Assembly: GCA_963763745.1 (NCBI GenBank)
Contig: CAVXQJ010000016.1
Location: 513,029 to 577,028 of the forward strand
Direction of reading: 5' to 3'
Source: an uncultured delta proteobacterium
Lineage (GTDB): Bacteria > Myxococcota_A > Polyangia > Polyangiales > Polyangiaceae
DNA length: 64,000 bases
Below, one piece after another: positions 8,076 through 47,354 of the stretch. A program made the translations under genes and the position numbers. How positions within the stretch are numbered: position 1 is the stretch's first letter; the number at the start of each line of letters is the position of its first letter. The notes below the pieces were generated by a model. The model did not search any database, was not told the DNA's origin, and was given only the letters and a program-made list of their open reading frames with translations.

Positions 8076-8077
8076 AA

Positions 8078-8139
8078 AAGATCGAAGGTCAGAAGAACCA
8101 AAATTCTTCTGACCTTCTGACCTTCCTGCTTCTCTTCTG

Positions 8140-10403: not shown

Positions 10404-10526
10404 GGGCTGTCGTGTGATTGCACGCCAAACGCGAAAGATTCCTGCCAGCGCCGAGTGAGCAGCGAGTCGTGATTGCGCTGTCATGAATCTTTCGCTGGGG
10501 ATTGGCATGCAATCACACGACAGCCC
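10404..10526. repeat. Palindromic hairpin element family 2, copy 1; overlaps start of DUF559 gene (approximate)
   Basis: Arms gggctgtcgtgtgattg...gcgaaagattcctgccagcgc and gcgctgtcatgaatctttcgc...caatcacacgacagccc are reverse complements; second copy at 11.2 kb. Confidence 0.65.
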
Positions 10527-10863: not shown

Positions 10864-11242
10864 GCGCCGCGCAGATGATGTCGAGTGCGGCTTGGATGTC
10901 GCGCTCGACGAGGTCGGACGAGATTCGGAGAACGCGGACGCCGTAGAGACGAGCAAGCTCAGCGTCGCGCCGCGCATCGCGCTCGCGTTGCTCCGCGTGA
11001 ATGCCACCGTCGACTTCGATGACGAGCTTGTAAGAAGCAACGAAGAAGTCCGCGATGAACGGATGAAGCGGATGCTGCCGCCGAACGCGAACGCCGAGCT
11101 GTTTGCCGCAAACGCGGCGCCAAAGCAGCGCCTCGCTTCGTGTCGGAGCTTTGCGCATCTCGCGAGCGCGTTGCGTGATTGAGAAGAGCGAAGGGCTGTC
11201 GTGTGATTGGTCGTGCATGCCAACTACGAGCGAAAGATTCAT
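10856..11242 (-). CDS. DUF559 domain protein, paralog 2 (convergent, 3' ends overlap by 8 nt)
   Basis: MNLSLVVGMHDQSHDSPS...RSEALLW...RRQHPLHPFIADFFVASYKLVIEVDGGIH; N-terminus is nucleotide-identical to the paralog over about 50 bp, the rest diverged at DNA level but conserved as protein. Confidence 0.7.
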   Translation of the reverse strand: MNLSLVVGMHDQSHDSPSLFSITQRAREMRKAPTRSEALLWRRVCGKQLGVRVRRQHPLHPFIADFFVASYKLVIEVDGGIHAEQRERDARRDAELARLYGVRVLRISSDLVERDIQAALDIICAALI

Positions 11243-11327
11243 GACAGCGCACTCACGCCTCGCTGCTCACTCTGCGCTGGCAGGAATCTTTCGCGTTCGG
11301 CGTGCACGACCAATCACACGACAGCCC
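11193..11327. repeat. Palindromic hairpin element family 2, copy 2 (inverted relative to copy 1; approximate)
   Basis: gggctgtcgtgtgattgg...cgaaagattcatgacagcgc / gcgctggcaggaatctttcgc...caatcacacgacagccc. Confidence 0.65.
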
Positions 11328-16796: not shown

Positions 16797-17555
16797 TCAA
16801 CGCAGTTGAAATGCCCCGATCACGTCGGCGCGCTTCACGGGTCCGCCGTGGCCCAAGTAGAAGGTCTGAACGCCGAGATCGAGGAGCGCCTGGATGTTCT
16901 TTCGGTTCTGCGCGGGGTCGGCTTGATAGAGGTGCTCGCCGGGCGAGTGTGGAAAGAAGAGCCCGCCGAGCGCACCGCCCGCGATCATGTCGCCGACGAA
17001 CGCGGTGTGATCGGCGAGCAAGATGACGATCGATCCGGGCGTGTGGCCCGGCATCTCGATCACTTTTCCGGCGATGCCCCACGGCGCGAGATCGATCGCG
17101 TCGTTCGGACGCACGATGATGTCCGGCACGAGCTCGGGGTATTCGGTCGTGAGAAATGGCTTGAGCACGGCGCCCGTGAAGCCAGTCGGTTTGAGATCGT
17201 CGTCGTGACCTGCCGCGGCGAGCGAAAAATCGCCGAGGCCGAGCATGACCTTCGCTCCGGCGAGCCTTTGGATGTCGGCTGCGAGACCGGCGTGATCGGC
17301 GTGGCCGTGCGTCACGACGACGAGCCCGACCGAGCTCCTCGCGACGCCGCGCTCGGCGAGCGCCGCCGCGAGATCGTCCATGTCGCCGAGAGTCCCCGAA
17401 TCGACGAGCACGGGATGCCGCGTGCGAATCATGAACACGTTCGAGAGACGCAGCGGGATTTGGACGATCTCCGCGGACCCACCACTGGTGAGGGGCGCCT
17501 TCCCGACGACGGTGGGTCCGGCGCAAGCGAAGAGGAGAGGGAACAGGAAGATCAA
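16797..17555 (-). CDS. Metallo-beta-lactamase-fold hydrolase (likely exported); start uncertain
   Basis: VTHGHADHAG HxHxDH motif; trimmed from ORF 16797..18539; only in-frame ATG is at 17432 (MIRTRHP) but a conserved beta-strand plus LLFACAG lipobox precede it; possible TTG start at 17555 lies inside repeat family 3 copy 2. Confidence 0.55.
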   Translation of the reverse strand: MIFLFPLLFACAGPTVVGKAPLTSGGSAEIVQIPLRLSNVFMIRTRHPVLVDSGTLGDMDDLAAALAERGVARSSVGLVVVTHGHADHAGLAADIQRLAGAKVMLGLGDFSLAAAGHDDDLKPTGFTGAVLKPFLTTEYPELVPDIIVRPNDAIDLAPWGIAGKVIEMPGHTPGSIVILLADHTAFVGDMIAGGALGGLFFPHSPGEHLYQADPAQNRKNIQALLDLGVQTFYLGHGGPVKRADVIGAFQLR

Positions 17556-17640
17556 AAGATCAGAAGGAGAGAAGTGGGGTTTCGAACCACAAATTCTTCC
17601 TGATCTTCTGATCTTCCTGTTCACTCTTCTTCCTAGCGTA
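17540..17640. repeat. Repeat family 3 copy 2: AT-richer hairpin element (approximate)
   Basis: gaacaggaagatcaaaagatcagaagga ... ccacaaattcttcctgatcttctgatcttcctgttc; related to copies at 8.1 kb and 45.8 kb. Confidence 0.6.
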
Positions 17641-18101: not shown

Positions 18102-18809
18102 ATGTTCTCGCTTCCCGGCCGACTGCGCGCGACGACGCTCGGCGATTTGCTCGGCGTGCTTCACCGCGCGGGCGCGAGCGGAACCCTCGAGCTCACCGAA
18201 GATCGCGGGCGCACGCACCGCGTCCACATCACGTCGGGGCTCGTCACGTCCGTCGAGCTCGATGGCGCGAGCCCGCCGCTCACCGATCTCCTGAAGACCG
18301 CCGGTGCGCTCGACGACATGACGATTCGTCGCGCGGTGCTCCGCGCTCTCACCTCGCAGCGCCTCGTCGGCGAAGTGCTCGCGTCCGACTTCCACGTGTC
18401 GCCCAACGTGATCGACGTCGCGCTGCGCGACCAGCTCGTCTTGCGGCTGCGCGCGCTCGAGTCGATCGAAGACGCGCGCGTCGGCTTTCGTGCGTGCGTG
18501 CGTCCGCCGCGCGAAGCTCTGCGCGATCGTCCGCTCCAAGCGAGCGAGTTTCTACGCGGCCGCCGCCGCGCGCGCGATCGCGACGCGAAGACGCAAACCC
18601 CAACCCCCGCTCCATCGCGCGACTCGAGCGCGTACACGCTGCTCGGCGTGGAGCGCGACGCGGACGCTGCGGAGATCCGCCGCGCGTTTCGGCGTCTCGC
18701 GCGGGAGCTGCATCCTGATCGACATCCGGAGGCGAGCGAGGGTGAGCGACGCGCGCTTGCGTTGAAGTTCGCGCAAGTCGCGGCGGCGTATCAGGCGCTC
18801 GTCGCCTGA
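18102..18809 (+). CDS. DUF4388-domain protein with C-terminal DnaJ (J) domain
   Basis: N-terminal TTLGDLLGVL...GTLEL (DUF4388-like) and C-terminal YTLLGVERDADAAEIRRAFRRLARELHPDRHP with HPD motif. Confidence 0.7.
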   Translation: MFSLPGRLRATTLGDLLGVLHRAGASGTLELTEDRGRTHRVHITSGLVTSVELDGASPPLTDLLKTAGALDDMTIRRAVLRALTSQRLVGEVLASDFHVSPNVIDVALRDQLVLRLRALESIEDARVGFRACVRPPREALRDRPLQASEFLRGRRRARDRDAKTQTPTPAPSRDSSAYTLLGVERDADAAEIRRAFRRLARELHPDRHPEASEGERRALALKFAQVAAAYQALVA

Positions 18810-19136
18810 ATTTCTCCCCCCGCTCGTGCTCGGGCTCGTCCTCGGTCATGCTCGGCGGCCGATGCATGCATTGTACATGTTTCCGCCTGCGCGTGACCTT
18901 GCGGGCGAGCCCTGCGCGCGAGCGTCCCCCTCTCGGTGTCGGCCCAAAGCGGCCGCCACCGAGGTGGGAAGTGTCTTCACTTTCTCATTGAAGACCATTC
19001 CCCCTCGCGTTCGCGAAGCGAACGCATGAGGGGGACGCTCGCGCGCAGGGCTCGCCCGCAAGCCGCGGTGAGGATGTGTCGTGGCTCTGGACCGCGGCGA
19101 GGACGAGCCCGAGCACGAGCGGGGGGAGAACTTCTC
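18809..19136. repeat. MITE-like palindromic repeat family 1, full-length copy B (about 328 bp, nested inverted repeats; approximate)
   Basis: Terminal inverted repeats atttctccccccgctcgtgctcgggctcgtcctcg / cgaggacgagcccgagcacgagcggggggagaa; inner IR cttgcgggcgagccctgcgcgcgagcgtccccctc / gagggggacgctcgcgcgcagggctcgcccgcaag; central gcgttcgcgaagcgaacgc palindrome. Confidence 0.7.
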
Positions 19137-24134: not shown

Positions 24135-25450
24135 GGCACTTCCCGAAATCCCTTTCCCACTTTTTCGGCGATGCGGGCTTCCGCTTCGACGAGCGCCTCA
24201 CCCTCCGAGGCGAACGACTTCGTTTTGACCTCGAATGTGCCGTAGCGCACGCGATGTTTCGTGCCGACGACCTCGATCTCCCAGAACGCGTTCGTCTCGT
24301 CGTCGCGCATCTCGAAACGCCTTATTTTCGGGGCGATCCCGGTTCCGGCGGACTTCTGCGTTTTTTCGAAGAGTTGGACCGGAGCGGGTTTCTCTTTCGG
24401 GTGCGGATGGAATTCGGCGTCCGCGCGCTCGCCGACGTAGCTCGGGAAGCGCGGCACGCCTCCATCGGACAGCTCTTGGTAACGGAACGTGATGATCGTT
24501 CCGATCGCAGGCGGGTGCTCGCGCTCTTTGTCCGAGAAGCCCGTGCCGACGTTGAAGCGCGTGCCGTCTTCGAGCTCGACGACGAGCGCGCCGAGCCGGC
24601 CCTTGTGCTTTCCCATGCCGGCGACGTGCTCGACGATCTTCGCCTCGGCGTCGTGGAACGTCTTCACTTTGAGGAGCGTCGTCGAGCGGCCGGCTTCGTA
24701 TTTCGATCCGGGCTTGCGAAGCATCATGCCTTCGCCGCCGAGCGCCTCGACGCGCGCGAGCTCCTCCTTCAGATGCGCTTCGTCGCGGCAGGTCTCGTGC
24801 GGATGCATCCTTGCATATTGCAACTTCTCGCCGACGACCTCGCGGATGTGAGCGAGGCGCTCTTCGAACGTGCCGCCGTGCTTGGGCGCGTCGAAGACGA
24901 GGTACTTGAGCGTCTTCCACTCCGGCGGCTTGTCTTGCCGCTTCACGATACCGACGGTTTTCTGAAACGTCTTTCGCCCGCCCCACAGCTCCCCGTCGAG
25001 CGGCGTCTTCGGAAGATCCGCGATGAACCAATCGGGCGCGTGAAAAACATTTCCGAGGCGCGAGATGAACTGCACGCCATCCCAGTACGCGCGCACGCCG
25101 TCGAGCTTCTCGCTCATCCACCAACCCTCGAGCGCGATGTCCATCTCCCACTTGTGCGCGAGGAGAAGAGGCGGCGCTTTGTCGGGCGCGTCGACCTCTT
25201 CGCCGTCTTCGTTGACGATCTTCTTGCGAGCGGGTTTTCCGGCGAGCTCCACGTTGCCGAGCCGCGCCTTCTCGGCTTCGTCGCCGCGATACGCGCGAAT
25301 GTGTTTGCACGTGCGCTGCTCGATGCCGAGCGATTGATTGCGCCACGCAGGACACGTGCACGAGTACACGCCGCCCACGTTCTTCAGCGTGTAGATGGAG
25401 GAGCCAGAGCCTTGAACTTCGACGGATGCGCCGTCTTCGAGATCGGGCAT
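24131..25450 (-). CDS. ATP-dependent DNA ligase with N-terminal SWIM zinc finger and C-terminal WGR domain
   Basis: KLDGVRA (motif I KxDG), LDGELW (motif III), LLKVK (motif V); SWIM CTCPAWRNQSLGIEQRTCKH (CxCx14CxH); C-terminal FWEIEVVGTKHRVRYGTF WGR-like; trimmed from ORF 24131..25654 because the first 68 codons are read-through of repeat family 1 copy C. Confidence 0.8.
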   Translation of the reverse strand: MPDLEDGASVEVQGSGSSIYTLKNVGGVYSCTCPAWRNQSLGIEQRTCKHIRAYRGDEAEKARLGNVELAGKPARKKIVNEDGEEVDAPDKAPPLLLAHKWEMDIALEGWWMSEKLDGVRAYWDGVQFISRLGNVFHAPDWFIADLPKTPLDGELWGGRKTFQKTVGIVKRQDKPPEWKTLKYLVFDAPKHGGTFEERLAHIREVVGEKLQYARMHPHETCRDEAHLKEELARVEALGGEGMMLRKPGSKYEAGRSTTLLKVKTFHDAEAKIVEHVAGMGKHKGRLGALVVELEDGTRFNVGTGFSDKEREHPPAIGTIITFRYQELSDGGVPRFPSYVGERADAEFHPHPKEKPAPVQLFEKTQKSAGTGIAPKIRRFEMRDDETNAFWEIEVVGTKHRVRYGTFEVKTKSFASEGEALVEAEARIAEKVGKGFREVP

Positions 25451-25470
25451 GGTGGCGAGATATATCAGAG

Positions 25471-25695
25471 GTTTCTCCTCCGCTCGTGCTCGGGCAGGGG
25501 TCTCCCCCCGCTCGTGCTCGGGCTCGTCCTCGTCAGCGGCGGACGATGCGAGCAGCGTGAATGTTCCGCCTGCGCGTGACCTCGCGCGCAGCCCGGCGCG
25601 CGCAGAGCCGCGCGGAGGCGAAACATGTATATTGCACGCATTGTCGCCGAGCACGGCCGAGCATGCCGGCGAGCACGAGCGGGGGAGAAATCTCG
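25471..25695. repeat. MITE-like palindromic repeat family 1, copy C (approximate)
   Basis: Left arm ctccgctcgtgctcggg (duplicated) ...gcctgcgcgtgacc; right arm cgaaacatgtatattgcacgcattg...ggcgagcacgagcgggggagaaatctc; lies between divergent ligase and hflX starts. Confidence 0.65.
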
Positions 25696-27520
25696 CCTAT
25701 ACTCCGCCCCCTTGGAAATCTACGGCAACACATCCGGCCTCTCGCCGTCCGCGAAGAAGACGCTCGAGCGCATCTATCGCCGGCGCGTGCCCATCGACAC
25801 GCTCGTCACGCCCGAGCTCCAGCGTTCGCTCGTCGATGCGTCGATCGAGACGGGCCGACAAGTCGGCGTGCTCGTGCATCGCTCCGGGCAAGTCGATTAC
25901 GTGATCGCGGGCGACGCGGGGAAGCTCGAGCTTCCGAACGTCGGACGCTTGCGCGCCGCGGAGGGACGCCTTCGCGGTCTTCGATTGATCCACACGCACG
26001 TGCGCGGCGAGCCGCTCACGCAAGACGATCTCATCGACCTCGTGCGGCTTCGGCTCGATCTCGTGTGCGCGATTCAGCTCGCGCCGACGGGCGAGGTGCG
26101 CGCGCTCTCGTATGCGCACAACGTTCCGGGGCAGCCGCCGTATCGCGTCATCGGACCGCTCCTTCCGGGCCGCGCGGATCTCGACGTCGGCAGGCTCGTC
26201 TCGGATCTCGAAGCCGAGTTCGGCAAGCTCGCAAAGGGCCGCGCCGTCCGCGCGAAGGACGGCCGCGCGATCTTGATCTTCGTGAACGAGAAGCGAGACA
26301 GAGATGGCTGGCACACGCAGGTCAAGATGCACGAGCTCCGCGAGCTCGCGCGCACGGCGGGCGTCGAGGTCGTCGATTCGATCGTTCAGGCGCGCGAGAA
26401 GGTCGATCCAAAAACCATCATGGGGCAGGGCAAGCTCGACGACGTCATCTTGCGCGCCGCCGAGCTCGACGCCGACGTCCTCATCTTCGACCGCAACCTG
26501 AGCCCGTCGCAGTCGAGCGCGATCGGCAAGACGAGCGAGCTCAAGATCATCGATCGCAGCCAGCTCATCTTGGACATCTTCGCGCAGCGCGCCGAGAGCA
26601 AAGACGGCAAGCTCCAAGTCGAGCTCGCGCAGCTGAAATATTCGATGCCGCGCCTCGGGCAAAAAGACGACTCGCTCTCTCGCCTCACGGGCGGCATCGG
26701 CGGACGCGGGCCGGGCGAAACGAAGCTCGAGATCGGACGACGCCGCGCGAAGGAGCGCGTCGCGCACCTCGAAGCGCAGCTGAAGAAGCTCGGCAAGCAA
26801 CGCGAGCAGCGCCGCCGCAAGCGCTCGCGCGAAGGCGTGCCGACGGTCGCCATCGTCGGCTACACGAACGCCGGCAAGAGCACGCTGCTCAACACGTTGA
26901 CGGGCGCCGACGTCCTCGCGGAAGACAAGCTCTTCGCGACGCTCGACACGCGCTCTCGCGTGCTCAAGGTCGGTTGGGCGGGCTACGGCGATCGCGAGGT
27001 CGTCGTGACGGACACGGTCGGTTTCATCCGGGACCTGCCGAAGGATTTGTTCGCTGCGTTCCGCGCGACGTTCGAAGAAGCGGCCGACGCCGATTTGCTC
27101 TTGCACGTCGTCGACGCGAGCGATCCCGCGAAAGACGATCACATCGCGACGACCGCCTCTGTGCTCGAGCAGCTCGATCTCGCGAATGTGCCGCGCGTGC
27201 TCGTGTTCAACAAAATCGATTTGCTGGAACCGCTCGAAGAAAAATCGCTCGCACGCGCGAACCCCGACGCGGTGCTCGTGACCGCGACCAAGCGCGACAC
27301 GCTGCGGCCTCTCATCGAGCGCATCGCGGCGGAGCTCGCGACGCGGTGGGAAGACGCGGCGAAGGTTCCGAGCGGGGCCTCTGTCGGGAGCGGAGTCGGA
27401 GATGGGGACGGGGACGGAGACGGAGACGGGGACGGACGCGGGCACGGCGATGCCGAGGAGCTGACGACGCTCGACGCGATGCTCGAAGCCGCGGGGCGAA
27501 AGCGGCGGCGGAGCTCGTAA
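25625..27520 (+). CDS. hflX: GTPase HflX with about 200-aa N-terminal extension and C-terminal (GD)n tail; start uncertain
   Basis: HflX N-domain (RAILIFVNEK...ELRELARTAGVEV), G-domain GYTNAGKSTLLN / DTVGF / NKID; ORF ATG at 25625 lies within repeat copy C, alternative TTG/GTG starts downstream. Confidence 0.8.
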   Translation: MYIARIVAEHGRACRRARAGEKSRLYSAPLEIYGNTSGLSPSAKKTLERIYRRRVPIDTLVTPELQRSLVDASIETGRQVGVLVHRSGQVDYVIAGDAGKLELPNVGRLRAAEGRLRGLRLIHTHVRGEPLTQDDLIDLVRLRLDLVCAIQLAPTGEVRALSYAHNVPGQPPYRVIGPLLPGRADLDVGRLVSDLEAEFGKLAKGRAVRAKDGRAILIFVNEKRDRDGWHTQVKMHELRELARTAGVEVVDSIVQAREKVDPKTIMGQGKLDDVILRAAELDADVLIFDRNLSPSQSSAIGKTSELKIIDRSQLILDIFAQRAESKDGKLQVELAQLKYSMPRLGQKDDSLSRLTGGIGGRGPGETKLEIGRRRAKERVAHLEAQLKKLGKQREQRRRKRSREGVPTVAIVGYTNAGKSTLLNTLTGADVLAEDKLFATLDTRSRVLKVGWAGYGDREVVVTDTVGFIRDLPKDLFAAFRATFEEAADADLLLHVVDASDPAKDDHIATTASVLEQLDLANVPRVLVFNKIDLLEPLEEKSLARANPDAVLVTATKRDTLRPLIERIAAELATRWEDAAKVPSGASVGSGVGDGDGDGDGDGDGRGHGDAEELTTLDAMLEAAGRKRRRSS

Positions 27521-43344: not shown

Positions 43345-44775
43345 ATGGCGGTCTTCGAATACCGCGGAGTCCTCGTCGCGAGCGGGAAGCAGGTGCACGG
43401 CTTCCGCGACGCCGACAACGCACGCGTCTTGCGCTCGGCGCTGAAGCGCGAAGGCGTTCTCCTCACGAACGCGACCGAAGACACCAAAGCGCAAGGCCAG
43501 AAGGCTTCGCGCAACATCGATTTCGCTCGGGTTCTTCCGCCGCATCGGCGTCGGCGATGTCGCGATGATGACGCGCCAGCTCGCGACGCTCGTCGGCGCG
43601 GGCATCCCGCTCGTCGAAGCCGTCTCGGCGCTCGTCGATGCAAATGGAGAAGCCCGAGCTCCAGCGCGTGCTCACGCAGGTGCGCGATCGATTGAACGAA
43701 GGTCAGTCGCTCGCGAAGGCGCTCGAAGCGCACCCCAAAGTGTTTCCGGCGCTCTACGTGAACATGGTCGCCGCCGGCGAAGCATCGGGAACGCTCGAGC
43801 AAGTGCTCATGCGTCTCGCGGACTTCCAAGAGAATCAAGCGAAGCTGCGCGGCAAAGTCTCCGCTGCGCTCGCTTATCCCGTTTTGATGATCATCATCGG
43901 CACCGCGCTCATCAGCGTGATGATGGTCGCCGTCGTGCCGAAGGTGACATCCATCTTCGCGAGCCTCGGCCAAGCGCTGCCTTGGTACACGGCGACGCTC
44001 ATCTTCATCTCCGACGTGGTCAGCTCGAACGAGACCGTCGGATTCGTGCTCACGCTCGGCACGCTCACGTCGATGCGCAAAGCGATGACGAAGCCGGCGA
44101 CGAAGAGCGGCGCGGAAGACACGCAGCAAAACACGGCAAGCCTCGTGTGGGTCGTCGTGACGGCGGTGTTCGCACTCACGCTCATCCTCGCCGCGTTCGC
44201 GGTGTCGTCGCTCGTCGCTTATGCGATCGGCATCGGTCTCGGAATCTTCGGCGGCGTCTTCTTGTCGCGCTTCGTCGCGTTTCTCGGAAAGCCCGAGGGG
44301 CGTTTGTGGCGCGACACGATGATCCTCGAAATCGCCGCTCATCGGCCCGCTCGCGCGCATGCTCGCGGTCGCGCGCTTCTCTCGCACGCTCGCGACGCTC
44401 CTTCAAAGCGGCGTGCCGCTCCTCAAGGCGATGGAGATCGTGAAGAACGTCCTCGACAACGCGAAGCTCGAGAAGGTCGTCGAGACCGCGGCCGGATCGA
44501 TCCGCGAAGGCGAGTCGATCGCCGCGCCGCTCAAACGAAGCGGAGATTTCCCGCCGATCGTGACGCACATGATCGCCGTCGGCGAGAAGAGCGGCGAGCT
44601 CGAGACGATGCTCGAGAACGTCGCCAAGGCCTACGACACGCAAGTCGACACGCGCGTTCAGGCGCTGACGAGCTTGCTCGAGCCGCTCATCATCGTCTTT
44701 CTCGGCGGCGCCGTCGGCTTCATCGCGTTTTCGATTTTGATGCCGCTCATCCAGATGAACGACTTCGTGCAGTAA
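43345..44775 (+). CDS. gspF: Type II secretion inner-membrane platform protein GspF, interrupted by three apparent +1 frameshifts (about 43526-43533, 43637-43641, 44326-44332)
   Basis: Four collinear frame segments (ORFs 43345.., 43565.., 43638.., 44359..44775) each matching successive GspF regions, e.g. ITRQLATL and SPLIGPLARMLAVARFSRTLATLLQSGVPLL. Confidence 0.75.
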
Positions 44776-44779
44776 GAAG

Positions 44780-45181
44780 ATGAAGACCTCGCAAAAAGTA
44801 TTTTTCCCGTGGGAGCGCCGGCGAGGGCTGCTCGGTGCGATCGCGCGGACGCGCGGGCGGTTCATCTTGGGCGCGATCGCCGTCATCGTTCTCGTCGTGT
44901 GGATCAGCCGGCGCGAAGAGCACGCGGCCGCGGTGCGCGCGACGCGCGCGACGATCGACACCGCGTTTCACGCGATGATTCAGTATCGCGCCGACCACGC
45001 CGGGCATTGCCCGCGCGATTGGAACGAAATGGTCGCAGCGGCTTACTTGCATGACGTCCCGCTCGACGCGTGGGGACGCCCTTTGCGACTCACGTGTCCA
45101 GGCCGGCGCGACGCGGCCGGATTCGATCTGGAAAGTGACGGACCCGACGGCATCGCCGGTGGGCTCGATAGAGTTGAATGA
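44780..45181 (+). CDS. GspG-like pseudopilin paralog lacking a canonical prepilin leader/cleavage motif
   Basis: TM helix GAIAVIVLVVWI then pilin-like ...AFHAMIQYRADHAGHCP and GspG-type C-terminus LDAWGRPLRL...DGPDGIAGGLDRV; no G-F/V-T-L-x-E site. Confidence 0.5.
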   Translation: MKTSQKVFFPWERRRGLLGAIARTRGRFILGAIAVIVLVVWISRREEHAAAVRATRATIDTAFHAMIQYRADHAGHCPRDWNEMVAAAYLHDVPLDAWGRPLRLTCPGRRDAAGFDLESDGPDGIAGGLDRVE

Positions 45182-45336
45182 TGATCAAGGAGACGAATAT
45201 GCGAATCGCAAAACAGTTGATGTTCTCCCATGGGGGGGACAGGGGGGGCAAAGCCCCCCGTTGGGATCGAGCTGCAGGCGAGATCCGCAGGGAAGTGAGC
45301 GCGCAAAGCGCGCGAGAAGGGACGCAGTCCCTTCTT

Positions 45337-45750
45337 GTGACTAACAAGCATTTCTCCAAGGCGCTGCGCCGTTCACTCTCACGCGGCGTCACGCTCGTCG
45401 AGATTCTCATCGTGCTCGCGATCGTCGGGCTCATCGCGGGCGGCATTGCCGTCTACGCGGTGCCGAAGTTCCAACAAGCGCAAAAAGACAACACGAAGAA
45501 CTCGCTCAAAGCGCTTCACGCCGTCGCCGAAGCGTGGCGCGCGAATCACGGAAACGATTGCCCGACGGTCCAACGCCTCAAAGAGGAGAAGGAGCTCGCG
45601 GCCTCGAGCGACATCAACGACGCATGGGGCGATCCCTACAAGATCCAATGCGACGACGACGCAACCTCCGTGATCAGCTGGGGCCCGGACAAGAAAGAGG
45701 GCACGCAGGACGACATCAAGTTCCCGGACAACACACCGGCCAAGCAGTGA
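45337..45750 (+). CDS. gspG: Type II secretion major pseudopilin GspG
   Basis: GTG start giving 17-aa leader MTNKHFSKALRRSLSRG|VTLVEILIVLAIVGLIAG; C-terminal DAWGDPYKIQCDD...ISWGPDKKEGTQDDIKF GspG signature; 138 aa. Confidence 0.75.
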   Translation: MTNKHFSKALRRSLSRGVTLVEILIVLAIVGLIAGGIAVYAVPKFQQAQKDNTKNSLKALHAVAEAWRANHGNDCPTVQRLKEEKELAASSDINDAWGDPYKIQCDDDATSVISWGPDKKEGTQDDIKFPDNTPAKQ

Positions 45751-45751
45751 A

Positions 45752-45925
45752 GAGAGGCTTTGGGCTTTGGGCCTTGGGCTTTAGGAAGAAAGATGAACAG
45801 GAAGATCAAAAGATCAGGAAGAAGAGTTGGGGGGGAATCCTCACTCCATTCTTCTGATCTTCCCGATCTTCCTGTTTTCACTTTCTTTCGCCTAAAGCCC
45901 AAGGCCCAAAGCCCAAAGCCTCGCG
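45752..45925. repeat. Repeat family 3 copy 3: about 175-bp compound hairpin with perfect 32-bp outer inverted repeat, immediately downstream of gspG (approximate)
   Basis: Outer IR gaggctttgggctttgggccttgggctttagg / cctaaagcccaaggcccaaagcccaaagcctc; inner stem gaacaggaagatcaaaagatcaggaagaag / cttctgatcttcccgatcttcctgtt. Confidence 0.65.
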
Positions 45926-46638
45926 CGCTTCGTGCGCACCAGCGCGCTGTCACGCTCGTCGAGATTCTCATCGTGCTTCTCATCGTGACGCTGCTCTTGG
46001 CTGGCGTCGTGATGGGGTCGGGGCAGCTCGCCAGCGCGAAGTTGCACAAGAGCGCGACCGCGCTCACGGGCCTCATTCGCGTCGCGTACGTGCGCGCGAC
46101 GGTCACCGCGCGCAGCGAGCGCATCGTGTTCGACATCGACAACAGCAAGTTCTGGCTCGAAGAGTCCGAGCAGCCGATGCTCGTCCAAACGCACGACACG
46201 ACCGGCACGGGCGGCGCAGACCCCGTCACTGCCGCGGAGCAACAAGCGCTCGCCGAGACGGCACGACTCGTCCATGGCCCCGAGGCGCCGCGCGCGACGT
46301 TTCACAAGGTCAAACCAGGCTTGTACGCGGCAGGCGACAACCAAGGCGGGTCGGATCAAGGTCTCCCGTTTGGAATCAAGTTCAGGGCGGTGCAGACCGC
46401 CCACGACGAAGAAGCACGTACGAAGGGGCGCGCATATTTGTATTTCTGGCCTGGCGGGCTGACCGAGCGCGCGCACGTCGTGTTGCGAAAAGGCGATTCG
46501 CTCGCAGACGCAGACGCGGAGACGCTCGTCGTCGCGCCCCTCACCGGCTCCGCCGTCATCAAAGCGGGCAACATCTCTTTTCCCACCATCACGGACGAAA
46601 AGGATCTCTCCGAACGCGTCGATCAGGGCTCGCCATGA
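45793..46638 (+). CDS. gspH: Minor pseudopilin GspH-like; start uncertain (only in-frame ATGs lie inside the upstream hairpin repeat)
   Basis: Pilin N-terminus RA|VTLVEILIVLLIVTLLLAG; 4-nt overlap with gspI; leader would be 52 aa if ATG 45793 is used. Confidence 0.55.
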   Translation: MNRKIKRSGRRVGGESSLHSSDLPDLPVFTFFRLKPKAQSPKPRALRAHQRAVTLVEILIVLLIVTLLLAGVVMGSGQLASAKLHKSATALTGLIRVAYVRATVTARSERIVFDIDNSKFWLEESEQPMLVQTHDTTGTGGADPVTAAEQQALAETARLVHGPEAPRATFHKVKPGLYAAGDNQGGSDQGLPFGIKFRAVQTAHDEEARTKGRAYLYFWPGGLTERAHVVLRKGDSLADADAETLVVAPLTGSAVIKAGNISFPTITDEKDLSERVDQGSP

Positions 46639-47354
46639 AGTCGCGTGGCTTTTCCCTTCTCGAGGTCATGGTCGCGCTCGCGATCTTCGGGTTGATGATC
46701 TCGGGCATTTTGGCTGCGCAGGCCGGGCTTGCGGCGAGCAACAAGAAGGCCGCCAACATGGGCCAAGCCACGACGCTCGCCCGGTGCAAGATGACCGAGC
46801 TCGAAGAAAAGTTGATGAAGCTCGGTTATCCCGCGATCGACGACATCGACAATGGCGTCATCTGCTGCGAGGCAACCGACCTAACGACGTATTCTTGCGA
46901 TTACAAAGTAGAGAAAATCATCATGCCGGATCCGCCGACGAGCGCGACGGATCTCGACGCCGGCGCGGCGAGCCTCCTCGGCCTCAATGATGGCGGCTCG
47001 ACGGCGACGCTCGATTTCGACGGCGGGCTCGGCGCGATGGGCGCCATGCTCGGACCGGCGGCGGGCACTGGAGGCGCGTCGGGTCTCGTCGATATGGCGA
47101 TGGGGATCGTTTATCCGATGATGAAGCCGATGATGGAAGCTTCCATTCGGAAGATCACCGTTACGGTGCATTGGAAAGAGGGCCCGAACCCAGTCGAATT
47201 CGTTCTCGCGCAATACGTGACGAACCCGCAGACGGGTGGATTTCAGGGCGGGTTCTTCGGCGATGCAGGCGGTCCGCTTCCAACCGGATCTGGTGCGCCG
47301 CCGGTGAAGGGCGCGCCGCCGGTGCGGACCGGAACCGCAGGAGCGCCGTTCTAA
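46635..47354 (+). CDS. gspI: Minor pseudopilin GspI-like
   Basis: MKSRGFSLLEVMVALAIFGL prepilin motif (G|FSLLE); ATGA overlap with upstream gene. Confidence 0.65.
   Translation: MKSRGFSLLEVMVALAIFGLMISGILAAQAGLAASNKKAANMGQATTLARCKMTELEEKLMKLGYPAIDDIDNGVICCEATDLTTYSCDYKVEKIIMPDPPTSATDLDAGAASLLGLNDGGSTATLDFDGGLGAMGAMLGPAAGTGGASGLVDMAMGIVYPMMKPMMEASIRKITVTVHWKEGPNPVEFVLAQYVTNPQTGGFQGGFFGDAGGPLPTGSGAPPVKGAPPVRTGTAGAPF

What the first reader, a model, noticed from the sequence alone, without database searches (positions are those of the whole stretch)
45752..45925. Large compound hairpin (32-bp perfect outer inverted repeat plus inner stem) inserted directly after the major pseudopilin gene and swallowing the gspH start
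It is a member of an AT-richer hairpin family also seen at 8.08 kb, where it behaves as a terminator with a U-tract, and at 17.54 kb. Placement right after gspG is the classic position for a partial terminator or attenuator, which keeps the major pilin subunit in excess over downstream minor pilins. The only in-frame ATGs for gspH lie inside the element, so the element may now provide the gspH translation start or have displaced it.
Basis: partly seen in the sequence, partly recalled or inferred. Interest (0 to 1): 0.5.

Follow-up and report, generated by a model that had tools for sequence, protein, structure and literature searches.

The report
Palindromic repeat forming the gspH start
A very stable compound DNA/RNA hairpin sits 3 bases after the major pseudopilin gene of a soil myxobacterial secretion operon; its core is an old copy of a previously undescribed palindromic repeat family that now supplies the start codon and a long removable leader for the next gene, and only its perfect outer arms are new.

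Summary
Arms 45754-45785 and 45891-45922 are a perfect 32-nt inverted repeat around an inner hairpin (RNA fold -124 kcal/mol, z = -13.8). The only in-frame canonical starts for gspH, TTG 45760 and ATG 45793, lie inside it.

The inner part (about 45786-45890) belongs to a dispersed palindromic repeat family whose arms are tandem GGAAGATC octamers. The window holds copies at 17.5 kb and, diverged, at 8.1 kb. At least 28 more were found in high-GC soil metagenome contigs. The family is not in Rfam and I found no paper on it.

The same element occupies the same gspG-gspH junction in four relatives, and a decayed half survives in a fifth. Three of the four keep the frame open from the element's ATG into gspH. 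So the core insertion looks old and supplies the gspH start and a cleavable leader. The outer GGGCTTT-heptamer arms occur only here and add about -75 kcal/mol.

Most likely effect (inferred): the hairpin buries the gspH ribosome-binding site and start, lowering GspH relative to GspG, and may protect the gspG transcript end. It is not a canonical intrinsic terminator.

Caveats: gspE and gspF carry four 1-nt frameshifts in this assembly, and a neutral tolerated insertion is not excluded.

Side finding: a T2SS-specific structured element, E2, lies upstream of gspG.

The parts
45754..45785 (+). Outer 5' arm, made of tandem GGGCTTT-type heptamers. It contains the in-frame TTG at 45760-45762.
   Evidence: Perfect 32-nt inverted repeat. 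TRF finds period 7 x3.9. Not found elsewhere in the window or in 1.6 Mb of held loci.
45891..45922 (+). Outer 3' arm, the exact complement of the 5' arm. Compared with relatives, the extra DNA on this side is 33 nt, so the reading frame is kept. It is read in the gspH frame as RLKPKAQSPKP.
   Evidence: and comparison with the L002 and L203 junctions.
45786..45890 (+). Inner hairpin, a member of the GGAAGATC-octamer palindromic repeat family. The core arms are about 45796-45819 and 45849-45877.
   Evidence: Folds alone at -49.3 kcal/mol, z = -5.4. Both arms hit the arm HMM (E = 1.3e-4 and 8e-4). Shares an identical 22-mer with the 17.5-kb copy. Orthologous copies are present in L002, L003, L004 and L203.
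45793..45795 (+). ATG inside the 5' arm of the inner hairpin. This is the annotated gspH start and gives a 52-aa leader. The A and U sit in a 2-nt internal loop and the G is paired. The AGGAAG at 45783-45788 that could serve as Shine-Dalgarno is paired.
   Evidence: P0001; N_methyl motif at residues 48-72 of this ORF.
45337..45750 (+). gspG (major pseudopilin by best match and synteny). The likely start is GTG 45337, giving leader MTNKHFSKALRRSLSRG|VTLVE. The stop is TGA 45748-45750.
   Evidence: Pfam N_methyl passes its cutoff. TIGR01710 gspG is the best NCBIfam hit but falls below its cutoff. The leader is homologous to that of L201, MKTTKRIRKALSRG.
45793..46638 (+). gspH (minor pseudopilin by best match and synteny). 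The mature part begins at 45949 (VTLVEIL...). Residue -1 is Ala, where relatives have Gly.
17533..17630 (+). Second family copy in the window, just upstream of ATG 17643. The upstream flank is coded on the minus strand, so this is a divergent context.
   Evidence: -65.1 kcal/mol, z = -7.5.
8076..8134 (-). Diverged, shortened family copy. It lies between the stop TAG 8142-8140 of a Q-rich membrane-protein gene and the GTG 8075 start of an HrpB-like helicase gene. It matches a terminator-like pattern.
   Evidence: (E = 0.01).

Best explanation
What it is (well supported). The element is a compound palindrome.
- Its core is an old copy of a dispersed, previously undescribed palindromic repeat family of soil Polyangiales (Myxococcota).
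- The family consensus is CGAGAG..(A/T)TGAACAGG-(AAGATCRG)2-3-AAGG, a variable loop, then the mirror image.
- This copy lies at the 5' end of gspH and now provides the gene's start codon and a long N-terminal leader.
- The insertion is tolerated because prepilin leaders are cut off by the prepilin peptidase.
- In this genome alone the palindrome has been lengthened at its base by a perfect 32/33-nt inverted repeat of GGGCTTT heptamers. The perfection suggests this is recent.

How it most likely works (inferred).
- In the gspG-gspH mRNA the element folds into a hairpin of about -124 kcal/mol that begins 3 nt after the gspG stop.
- The hairpin base-pairs the gspH Shine-Dalgarno-like AGGAAG and flanks its AUG, so free ribosomes cannot initiate.
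- In relatives the AUG lies 4-10 nt after the gspG stop. There, gspH would be translated only by ribosomes that have just finished gspG and melted the hairpin base, which is hairpin-enforced translational coupling.
- In the window the outer arms move the AUG to 42 nt after the stop. That should throttle gspH further, unless TTG 45760, 9 nt after the stop, is used instead.
- A 32-bp perfect RNA duplex is also the kind of substrate that RNase III cuts and that blocks 3' exonucleases. It may therefore leave a stabilised gspG transcript.
- The expected net result is much GspG and little GspH.
For: Structure and position:
- Perfect 32-nt inverted repeat, fold energy and z-score.
- In the minimum-energy structure the AUG lies in a 2-nt internal loop between long helices, and the SD-like run is paired.

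It is a repeat family:
- An identical 22-mer at 17.5 kb, and arm-HMM hits at 17.5, 45.8 and 8.1 kb.
- At least 28 full hairpins among the first 120 metagenome hits, all in contigs of 64-76% GC.
- No Rfam family and no literature hit.

Same site in relatives, with the frame open from the element's ATG:
- L002 has a 24-aa leader, L004 48 aa, L203/P0021 42 aa and the window 52 aa.
- L204 keeps a decayed 5' half whose GTG start sits where the element's ATG is.
- Hairpin-bearing lineages are scattered through the GspH tree.
- The 3' outer addition is 33 nt, so it is in frame.

A second gene uses a family copy as its start:
- L160 carries a 760-aa lipoprotein gene (GC3 0.97). The hairpin-encoded MMNRKIGRSE... 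precedes the lipoprotein signal LLAALAMAWVVLSC.

RNA-level signal:
- The sense strand folds better than the antisense strand in 18 of 23 copies, by 2.9 kcal/mol on average (Wilcoxon p = 0.003), with 60 versus 43 G-U pairs.

This junction attracts or keeps hairpins:
- 15 of 77 related junctions have z < -3.
- Windows with z < -3 make up 4.5% at the junction and 0.23% elsewhere within +/-3.5 kb.

Comparators: in-frame palindromic insertions and terminator-like MITEs are documented (PMC10969869).
Against: - No expression data exist. Every functional step is inferred from sequence.
- Most related operons (about 80%) have a short junction without a hairpin, so a hairpin is not required for the system.
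- Self-complementarity of the orthologous copies (0.67-0.76) is barely higher than identity between orthologues (0.63-0.69). Maintenance of the structure by selection is therefore not demonstrated.
- The alignment-based covariation test was uninformative.
- The sense/antisense bias could partly reflect how copies were sampled.
- The junction is almost the only non-overlapping gene boundary in the operon, so the enrichment may reflect tolerance rather than selection.
- gspE and gspF carry four 1-nt frameshifts in this assembly, and GspH has Ala instead of Gly at -1. The operon may be decaying, in which case the outer arms need no function.
Confidence: 0.5

Rival explanations
1. Neutral passenger. 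This is a selfish or slippage-prone palindrome sitting in one of the few places in the operon where an in-frame insertion is harmless, because the leader is cleaved. It has no regulatory role. Elongating and terminating ribosomes and helicases cope with the structure.
For: - The family also lies in divergent and convergent intergenic regions.
- The element is lost or decayed in many close lineages (L001, L201, L204, L205, L207).
- Self-complementarity is no better than orthologue identity.
- Most relatives lack any hairpin.
- The same logic explains the L160 lipoprotein case.
Against: - A -124 kcal/mol stem enclosing the only start codon can hardly be without effect on initiation.
- The reading frame is kept in four lineages despite different hairpin lengths.
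- There is a sense-strand folding bias.
- Unrelated hairpins have been acquired repeatedly at this junction.
Confidence: 0.3
2. Intrinsic partial terminator or attenuator after gspG. RNA polymerase terminates at the U-rich run after the inner stem, so fewer transcripts reach gspH and the genes after it.
For: - The inner stem is followed by UUUUCACUUUCUUUC.
- The L002 orthologue has CCUGUUUUUUCUUC.
- The 8.1-kb copy matches the terminator pattern on the coding strand.
- The position, directly after the stop of the most abundant subunit's gene, fits.
Against: - No terminator-like site is called at 45.75-45.93 kb or at the 17.5-kb copy.
- The full hairpin is followed by GCGCGC.
- The U-rich run is the pairing partner of GGAAGAAAG and is not conserved in L003, L004 or L203.
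- The stems are long, bulged and about 50% GC, unlike canonical terminators.
- Five of 22 family copies lie between divergent genes.
- A strong terminator would also starve gspI through gspK, and no internal promoter is evident.
Confidence: 0.12
3. By-product of operon decay. The T2SS of this organism is being lost, and growth of the palindrome over the gspH start is one more inactivating lesion.
For: - There are four window-specific 1-nt indels in gspE (42096) and gspF (43525, 43640, 44328), and none in the 4 relatives.
- GspH has Ala at -1 where all relatives have Gly.
- The ATG has been moved from 4-10 nt to 42 nt after the gspG stop.
Against: - gspG through gspK and the genes beyond align to relatives without frameshifts.
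- The frameshifted genes are still 78-97% identical in protein sequence.
- The indels may be long-read assembly errors. L003, another MAG, also shows a broken frame.
- The 33-nt 3' addition keeps gspH in frame.
Confidence: 0.15
4. DNA-level element. The palindrome acts as a cruciform, a protein-binding array or a GATC cluster, for example in replication, repair, methylation or recombination, rather than as an RNA structure.
For: - The arms are tandem octamers, each carrying GATC.
- The element is symmetric, so both strands look alike.
- The outer arms are perfect, as expected of DNA-templated palindrome extension.
Against: - GATC is often replaced by GGTC, GACC or GATT, with G-U-compatible changes.
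- Sense-strand folds are better than antisense folds.
- No partner protein or recombinase gene was seen. This was not searched systematically.
Confidence: 0.05

Closest known systems
Rickettsia palindromic elements (RPEs)
   Same: Both are short palindromic repeat families whose copies sit inside ORFs in frame and are read as part of the protein (PMC10969869). Here the frame is open through the hairpin in the window, L002, L004 and L203, and in the L160 lipoprotein gene.
   Different: The phylum and sequence differ. Here the element lies at the very 5' end, donates the start codon, and encodes a part of the protein that is removed (a prepilin leader or a signal-peptide n-region). Most other copies are intergenic. 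The arms are tandem octamers.
REP/BIME elements of enterobacteria (for example the malE-malF intercistronic REP)
   Same: Both are dispersed extragenic palindromes that are often intercistronic. From my own knowledge of the classical work, REPs can stabilise the upstream mRNA segment and set different expression levels within an operon. That is the kind of effect proposed here for gspG versus gspH.
   Different: REPs are 20-40 nt, carry a conserved GTAG head and are linked to RAYT transposases. None of these features was seen here (the RAYT was not searched for beyond this window). The present element is 100-170 nt and carries a start codon.
Correia/NEMIS elements of Neisseria and SPRITE/BOX/RUP of pneumococcus (MITE-like repeats)
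   Same: These are 100-150-nt inverted-repeat elements that are co-transcribed with genes and form long hairpins. Such elements can be terminator-like, and they can insert into one another to give compound structures (PMC10969869). Processing of Correia hairpins by RNase III is from my own knowledge.
   Different: No target-site duplication or parent IS was found here. The compound structure does not look like one element inserted in another, because the outer arms match no other repeat in 1.6 Mb of related sequence.
Hairpin-masked translational coupling (for example the MS2 coat-replicase pair or atpH-atpA in E. coli; my own knowledge)
   Same: The start site of the downstream cistron is buried in a stem that only ribosomes translating the upstream cistron can open. 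In the relatives the AUG lies 4-10 nt after the gspG stop, inside the hairpin base.
   Different: Here the masking stem comes from a mobile-type repeat and is far longer. In the window the AUG is 42 nt from the stop, beyond a terminating ribosome's reach. Nothing has been tested experimentally.
Rho-independent (intrinsic) terminators
   Same: Both are a stem-loop directly after a stop codon. The inner stem is followed by a U-rich run, and the 8.1-kb copy fits the consensus pattern.
   Different: The stem is about 75 bp with bulges. No U-tract follows the complete hairpin, and it is not called by the consensus scan.

Membership tests
Intrinsic (Rho-independent) terminator | Short GC-rich stem (about 5-20 bp) with a loop of 3-8 nt | tested here: not met
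   The consensus scan of 44500-47000 finds no site in 45750-45930. The predicted stem is about 75 bp, bulged and 52% GC.
Intrinsic (Rho-independent) terminator | U-tract immediately 3' of the stem | tested here: inconclusive
   The full hairpin is followed by GCGCGCUUCG, with no U-tract. The inner stem is followed by UUUUCACUUUCUUUC, but this run pairs with the 5' flank and is not conserved in L003, L004 or L203.
Intrinsic (Rho-independent) terminator | RNA 3' ends or a coverage drop at the site | not testable with these tools
   No transcriptome data are available.
REP/BIME (RAYT-associated extragenic palindromes) | Many dispersed copies, mainly extragenic | tested here: met
   There are three copies in 64 kb and at least 28 hairpins in a truncated metagenome scan. 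Contexts are intergenic.
REP/BIME (RAYT-associated extragenic palindromes) | 20-40-nt unit with a conserved GTAG/GTGG head | tested here: not met
   Units are 50-150 nt. The conserved ends are CGAGAG...CTCTCG and TGAACAGG...CCTGTTCA.
REP/BIME (RAYT-associated extragenic palindromes) | Cognate RAYT (IS200/IS605-like) transposase in the genome | not tested
   The genome outside the window could not be retrieved. The window's ORFs were not screened for it.
MITE | Terminal inverted repeats, 50-500 bp, non-autonomous | tested here: met
   The whole element is an inverted repeat of 50-170 nt and has no ORF of its own.
MITE | Target-site duplication flanking the element | tested here: not met
   Inspection of the flanks of about 30 copies shows no recurring direct duplication. 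Pairing simply fades beyond CGAGAG/CTCTCG. This was done by eye, not by a formal test.
MITE | Parent IS with the same terminal repeats | not testable with these tools
   No genome-wide search was possible. The single-arm hits in the metagenome scan were chance matches in membrane-protein genes.
RPE-like in-frame palindromic insertion | A repeat copy inside an ORF, with the frame kept and no stop | tested here: met
   This holds for the window, L002, L004 and L203 in gspH, and for the L160 lipoprotein gene. L003 is out of frame, possibly through an error in its A8 run.
RPE-like in-frame palindromic insertion | The inserted peptide is actually translated | not testable with these tools
   This needs proteomics or ribosome profiling.
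Hairpin-masked translational coupling | Downstream SD and start base-paired in a stem | tested here: met
   In the minimum-energy and centroid folds, AGGAAG 45783-45788 is paired, and the AUG is flanked by helices with only its A and U in a 2-nt loop.
Hairpin-masked translational coupling | Upstream stop codon within a ribosome footprint of the masked start | tested here: inconclusive
   Relatives have 4-10 nt between the stop and the ATG, so they meet this. In the window ATG 45793 is 42 nt away (not met), while TTG 45760 is 9 nt away (met if it is used).
RNase III processing site | Uninterrupted dsRNA of about two helical turns or more | tested here: met
   The outer stem is 32 bp and perfect. 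Actual cleavage cannot be tested here.

The most novel reading that the evidence does not exclude
Polyangiales may control pseudopilin stoichiometry at the RNA level with recruited structured elements. Under this reading:
- Hairpins would be repeatedly captured and kept in the cleavable leader-coding region of gspH (15 of 77 lineages, from several unrelated families) to gate its translation or processing.
- A T2SS-specific four-hairpin element, E2, would move between the 5' ends of gspG, H, J and K.
- In the window the two elements bracket gspG.
- The octamer family itself would be a portable 'ribosome-site + ATG + basic leader' module that can found new gene starts wherever the N-terminus is later removed.
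- Its arms, and the heptamer-built arms seen here and in L062/L064, would grow by templated addition of short tandem repeats.
Probability: 0.18. Interest if true: 0.65.

Novelty: new member of a known kind. Interest (0 to 1): 0.45.

Why it matters
- It documents an undescribed, widespread palindromic repeat family in soil myxobacteria.
- It shows a clean way for such repeats to become part of genes. A copy that lands in the part of a protein that is later cut off (a prepilin leader or a signal peptide) can donate the start codon without harming the mature protein.
- It is a warning for annotation. The unusually long 'leaders' of these pseudopilins are translated repeats.
- If the inferred effect is real, it is a simple, evolvable way of setting the ratio of major to minor pseudopilin. 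It could be tested with reporter fusions.
- The side finding, E2, is a candidate new cis-acting structured RNA specific to type II secretion operons.

Tried and rejected
1. Ancestral-start idea. Deleting 45754-45922 gives GTG(45747)AAGAGCGCG..., which reads MKSALRAHQRA|VTLVE with the GTG overlapping the gspG stop. I rejected this as coincidence because relatives carry the inner hairpin with its own ATG at the same place, and the same deletion in L203 does not restore a frame.

2. Retrieving the window's own genome or strain variants with the look-up of encoding contigs. GspI, GspH and the 133-aa ORF were all not on record. The outer arms therefore could not be checked in close strains.

3. Alignment-based covariation on the five orthologous hairpins. 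Indels make the alignment unreliable, and only the invariant base of the stem was recovered.

4. Comparing self-complementarity with identity between orthologues. The values are similar (0.67-0.76 against 0.63-0.69), so this gives no proof of selection on the structure.

5. Searching for the outer-arm heptamer array elsewhere. There is none in the window or in 1.6 Mb of loci.

6. Rfam. Only sub-threshold matches to eukaryotic miRNA-precursor models appeared, meaning 'any long hairpin'.

7. Literature searches for a myxobacterial REP or MITE, or for a hairpin after gspG. Nothing relevant was found.

8. Tracking the GC3 phase along the window to count frameshifts. At GC3 of about 0.8 this was too noisy.

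I repeated it in parallel on +/-3.5 kb.

10. 'Purine-arm-first' orientation relative to genes. I recognised this as trivial, because both strands of a palindrome read that way.

11. Metagenome hits without a partner arm. I checked them as possible IS ends; nearly all are chance matches in membrane-protein coding sequence such as TatC-like IFLIFLF.

Full report
**1. The observation**

The sequence shows a perfect 32-nt inverted repeat. Its arms are 45754-45785 (GAGGCTTTGGGCTTTGGGCCTTGGGCTTTAGG) and 45891-45922, separated by 105 nt. The spacer is itself a hairpin, with inner arms at about 45792-45876.

As RNA the region folds at -124.2 kcal/mol. Dinucleotide shuffles give -62.0 +/- 4.5, so z = -13.8. 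The inner part alone gives -49.3 kcal/mol, so the outer arms contribute about -75 kcal/mol. The outer arms are period-7 tandem arrays. GC content is 52% against 65% for the window.

The hairpin base begins 3 nt after the stop of the upstream gene (TGA 45748-45750).

**2. Gene identities**

The upstream ORF has a prepilin N-methylation motif above the Pfam cutoff. Its best NCBIfam hit is GspG. The downstream ORF's best hit is GspH, and it is followed by GspI-like and GspJ genes. All the equivalog scores are below cutoff, so the names rest on best match plus synteny: E, F, a G-like gene, then G, H, I, J, K.

In the gspH frame the only canonical starts between the gspG stop and the mature N-terminus (VTLVE from 45949) are TTG 45760 and ATG 45793, and both lie inside the element. 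A public annotation of the same sequence starts the gene at ATG 45793 (P0001). In that ORF the methylation motif sits at residues 48-72.

**3. The repeat family**

The inner arms share an exact 22-mer with a hairpin at 17533-17630 (chance expectation 0.01).

At least 28 of these, all in contigs of 64-76% GC, are full hairpins of one family. Most of the remaining hits are chance matches in membrane-protein genes.

The family consensus is CGAGAG..(A/T)TGAACAGG-AAGATC(R)G-AAGATC(R)G-AAGG, a variable loop, then the mirror image. The arms are therefore 2-3 tandem GGAAGATC octamers.

An HMM built from the arms finds the 17.5-kb and 45.8-kb copies (both arms each) and one arm of a diverged copy at 8.1 kb.

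Of 22 classifiable contexts, 15 lie between co-directional genes, 5 between divergent genes and 2 between convergent genes. This is a general intergenic palindromic repeat, not a class of terminators.

Rfam has no matching family, and my literature searches found nothing.

**4. Related genomes**

The window is from a Polyangiales bacterium. Its closest GspH sequences in the genome collection are 76-82% identical. In the protein database the closest, apart from the identical P0001, are up to 84% identical.

The same family hairpin sits at the same gspG-gspH junction in L002, L003, L004 and L203 (= P0021). In each case an ATG lies in the 5' arm (ATGAACAGGAAG = MNRK), 4-10 nt after the gspG stop.

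From that ATG the frame runs open into gspH in three of these relatives, despite different hairpin lengths:
- L002: 24 codons to the cleavage site
- L004: 48 codons
- L203: 42 codons
- the window itself: 52 codons

Only L003 is out of frame, next to an A8 run in a MAG.

L204 (P0013) retains just a decayed 5' half, GAGAGAGAGTGAGCAGGAACATCAGACGG. Its GTG start occupies the position of the element's ATG. L001, L201 and L205 have short leaders and no hairpin. L207 has a different element (E2) at the junction, plus a possible small remnant of the hairpin.

In a neighbour-joining tree of mature GspH, lineages with and without the hairpin are interleaved.

The most economical reading is one old insertion that became the gspH start, followed by repeated decay. 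Recurrent insertion at a hot spot cannot be excluded.

**5. What is new in this genome**

Compared with L002 and L203, the window has two extra segments at the base of the old hairpin. One lies after GTGAAGA on the 5' side. The other lies before GCGCGC on the 3' side and is 33 nt long, so the frame is kept. The two segments are exact complements of each other.

The heptamer array occurs nowhere else in the window or in 1.6 Mb of related and metagenomic loci.

I cannot tell how it arose. Two symmetric transpositions are implausible. Candidate routes are templated palindrome extension (strand switching at the hairpin, combined with slippage of a heptamer) or gene conversion from an unseen compound copy. 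The perfection of the arms argues that the event is recent.

Hairpins whose arms are built from other short tandem repeats occur at the same junction in L062 (GTCTTCA) and L064 (CAGGCTC). A 271-nt compound family member in L197 is built the same way. Repeat-built arms are thus a recurring feature of these genomes.

**6. Mechanism**

Shown (as a structure prediction): the AGGAAG run 6 nt upstream of AUG 45793 is paired, and the AUG is held between long helices.

Shown: in relatives the AUG is within 4-10 nt of the gspG stop. In the window it is 42 nt away, while TTG 45760 is 9 nt away.

Inferred from established knowledge of translation initiation and coupling:
- Free 30S subunits cannot load on such a site.
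- In relatives gspH would be translated mainly by ribosomes terminating at gspG.
- The outer arms in the window should reduce gspH translation further.

Inferred from established knowledge of RNase III and of 3' stem-loops: a 32-bp perfect duplex is a likely processing site and exonuclease barrier. This would favour a stable gspG transcript. If both strands of the stem are cut, the AUG would be separated from the body of gspH.

Supporting but weak evidence:
- Sense-strand folds are more stable than antisense folds in 18 of 23 copies (p = 0.003).
- Strong hairpins are about 20-fold enriched at this junction relative to the rest of the operon.

Canonical intrinsic termination is not supported for this copy. 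The 8.1-kb copy does fit the pattern.

**7. Why this site tolerates the insertion**

The prepilin leader is removed by the prepilin peptidase, which is established T2SS/T4P biology. In-frame DNA inserted there does not alter the mature protein.

The same logic appears in L160. There a 760-aa lipoprotein gene (GC3 0.97) can only start at the ATG of a family hairpin. The hairpin-encoded basic peptide MMNRKIGRSE... precedes the lipoprotein signal sequence.

The nearest analogues are the in-frame Rickettsia palindromic elements (PMC10969869).

**8. Caveats**

- No expression data exist.
- About 80% of related operons manage without a junction hairpin.
- Structural maintenance by selection is not demonstrated.
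- The window carries four lineage-specific 1-nt indels in gspE and gspF, and GspH has Ala at -1. These are either long-read assembly errors or signs that the operon is decaying. If it is decaying, the outer arms may be just another lesion.

**9. Side finding, E2**

Directly upstream of the probable gspG start (GTG 45337) lies a 112-nt element, 45226-45337, made of four small hairpins.

A covariance model built from four copies finds it only in T2SS loci, in about 1.36 Mb searched. It lies upstream of:
- gspG in the window, L004 and L204
- gspH in L207, with protein-level traces in P0017, P0031 and P0038
- gspJ in L001, L003 and L205
- gspK in L201

Across the ten copies, 95.5% of cells are paired. 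Twenty-one of 37 pairs show changes on both sides, against 6.2 +/- 1.9 in shuffles and at most 9 in slid controls. That alignment was fitted to the model, which favours the structure. E2 is not in Rfam.

In the window, gspG is thus bracketed by E2 on its 5' side and the compound hairpin on its 3' side.

**10. Verdict**

The element is a new family within a known kind (REP/MITE/RPE-like palindromic repeats). Two features stand out: it donates the start codon of gspH, and it has acquired a lineage-specific perfect extension. Interest is moderate (0.45). E2, and the recurrence of hairpins at this junction, are the parts most worth following up.

Noticed in passing
window 45226-45337 (also L001 7458-7569, L003 7455-7566, L004 5307-5414, L201 5290-5399, L205 2999-3107, L207 3027-3136): E2 is a conserved 112-nt element of four small hairpins that ends at the probable GTG start of gspG. 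A covariance model finds it only in T2SS loci. It lies upstream of gspG, gspH, gspJ or gspK depending on the genome. Covariation is strong: 21 of 37 pairs show double changes and 95.5% of cells are paired. It is not in Rfam. It is a candidate T2SS-specific cis-acting structured RNA.
   Followed up: partly
window 42096, 43525, 43640, 44328: There are four single-base indels, one deletion and three insertions, specific to the window. They split gspE into 2 frames and gspF into 4 frames. The 4 relatives are intact, and the encoded pieces are still 78-97% identical to them. These are either assembly errors or recent pseudogenisation of the T2SS ATPase and platform genes.
   Followed up: partly
window 45946-45948: GspH has Ala, not the near-universal Gly, at position -1 of the prepilin cleavage site (QRA|VTLVE). 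All relatives examined have G at this position.
   Followed up: no
L160 2749-2820 (+ strand): A 760-aa lipoprotein gene (GC3 0.97) has its only plausible start at the ATG at the 5' end of a family hairpin. The hairpin encodes MMNRKIGRSEAVRGRSSRSSDLPVQFSR, which lies ahead of the lipobox signal LLAALAMAWVVLSC. This is a second case of the family donating a start and a cleavable N-terminal extension.
   Followed up: partly
window 18808-19134 and 25448-25714: This is another nested palindromic family. The outer arms are 37-45 nt (..TTTCTCCCCCCGCTCGTGCTCGGGCTCGTCCTCG..). In the first copy they enclose a perfect 35-nt inner inverted repeat at 18898-19062. The arm motif is tandemly duplicated in the second copy.
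   Followed up: no
window 10404-10526 and 11193-11327: There are two copies of a ~125-nt MITE-like element with terminal inverted repeats GGGCTGTCGTGTGATTG. They lie about 670 nt apart in opposite internal orientation.
   Followed up: no
L062 5813-5942, L064 junction, L197 2545-2815: Other hairpins have arms built from short tandem repeats: GTCTTCA x3, CAGGCTC x4, and CACGAAG/CAGAGAC modules. Two of them lie at the same gspG-gspH junction. Repeat-built arms seem to be a general feature of palindromes in these genomes.
   Followed up: no
L201 2603-3004: In the closest available relative apart from the identical P0001 (GspH 84% identical), an extra 133-aa gene lies between gspG and gspH. Both gspG and gspH there have short leaders with neither element.
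   Followed up: no
window 45757-45785: The outer 5' arm carries three GGG tracts and two GG tracts spaced by 4 nt (GG-CTTT-GGG-CTTT-GGG-CCTT-GGG-CTTTA-GG). This is a weak G-quadruplex-type motif that could compete kinetically with the duplex. E2 also has two G7 runs.
   Followed up: no
window 45178-46638: gspG and gspH are in the same reading frame, separated by the single TGA at 45748-45750. Stop-codon read-through would therefore fuse them through the hairpin-encoded peptide.
   Followed up: no
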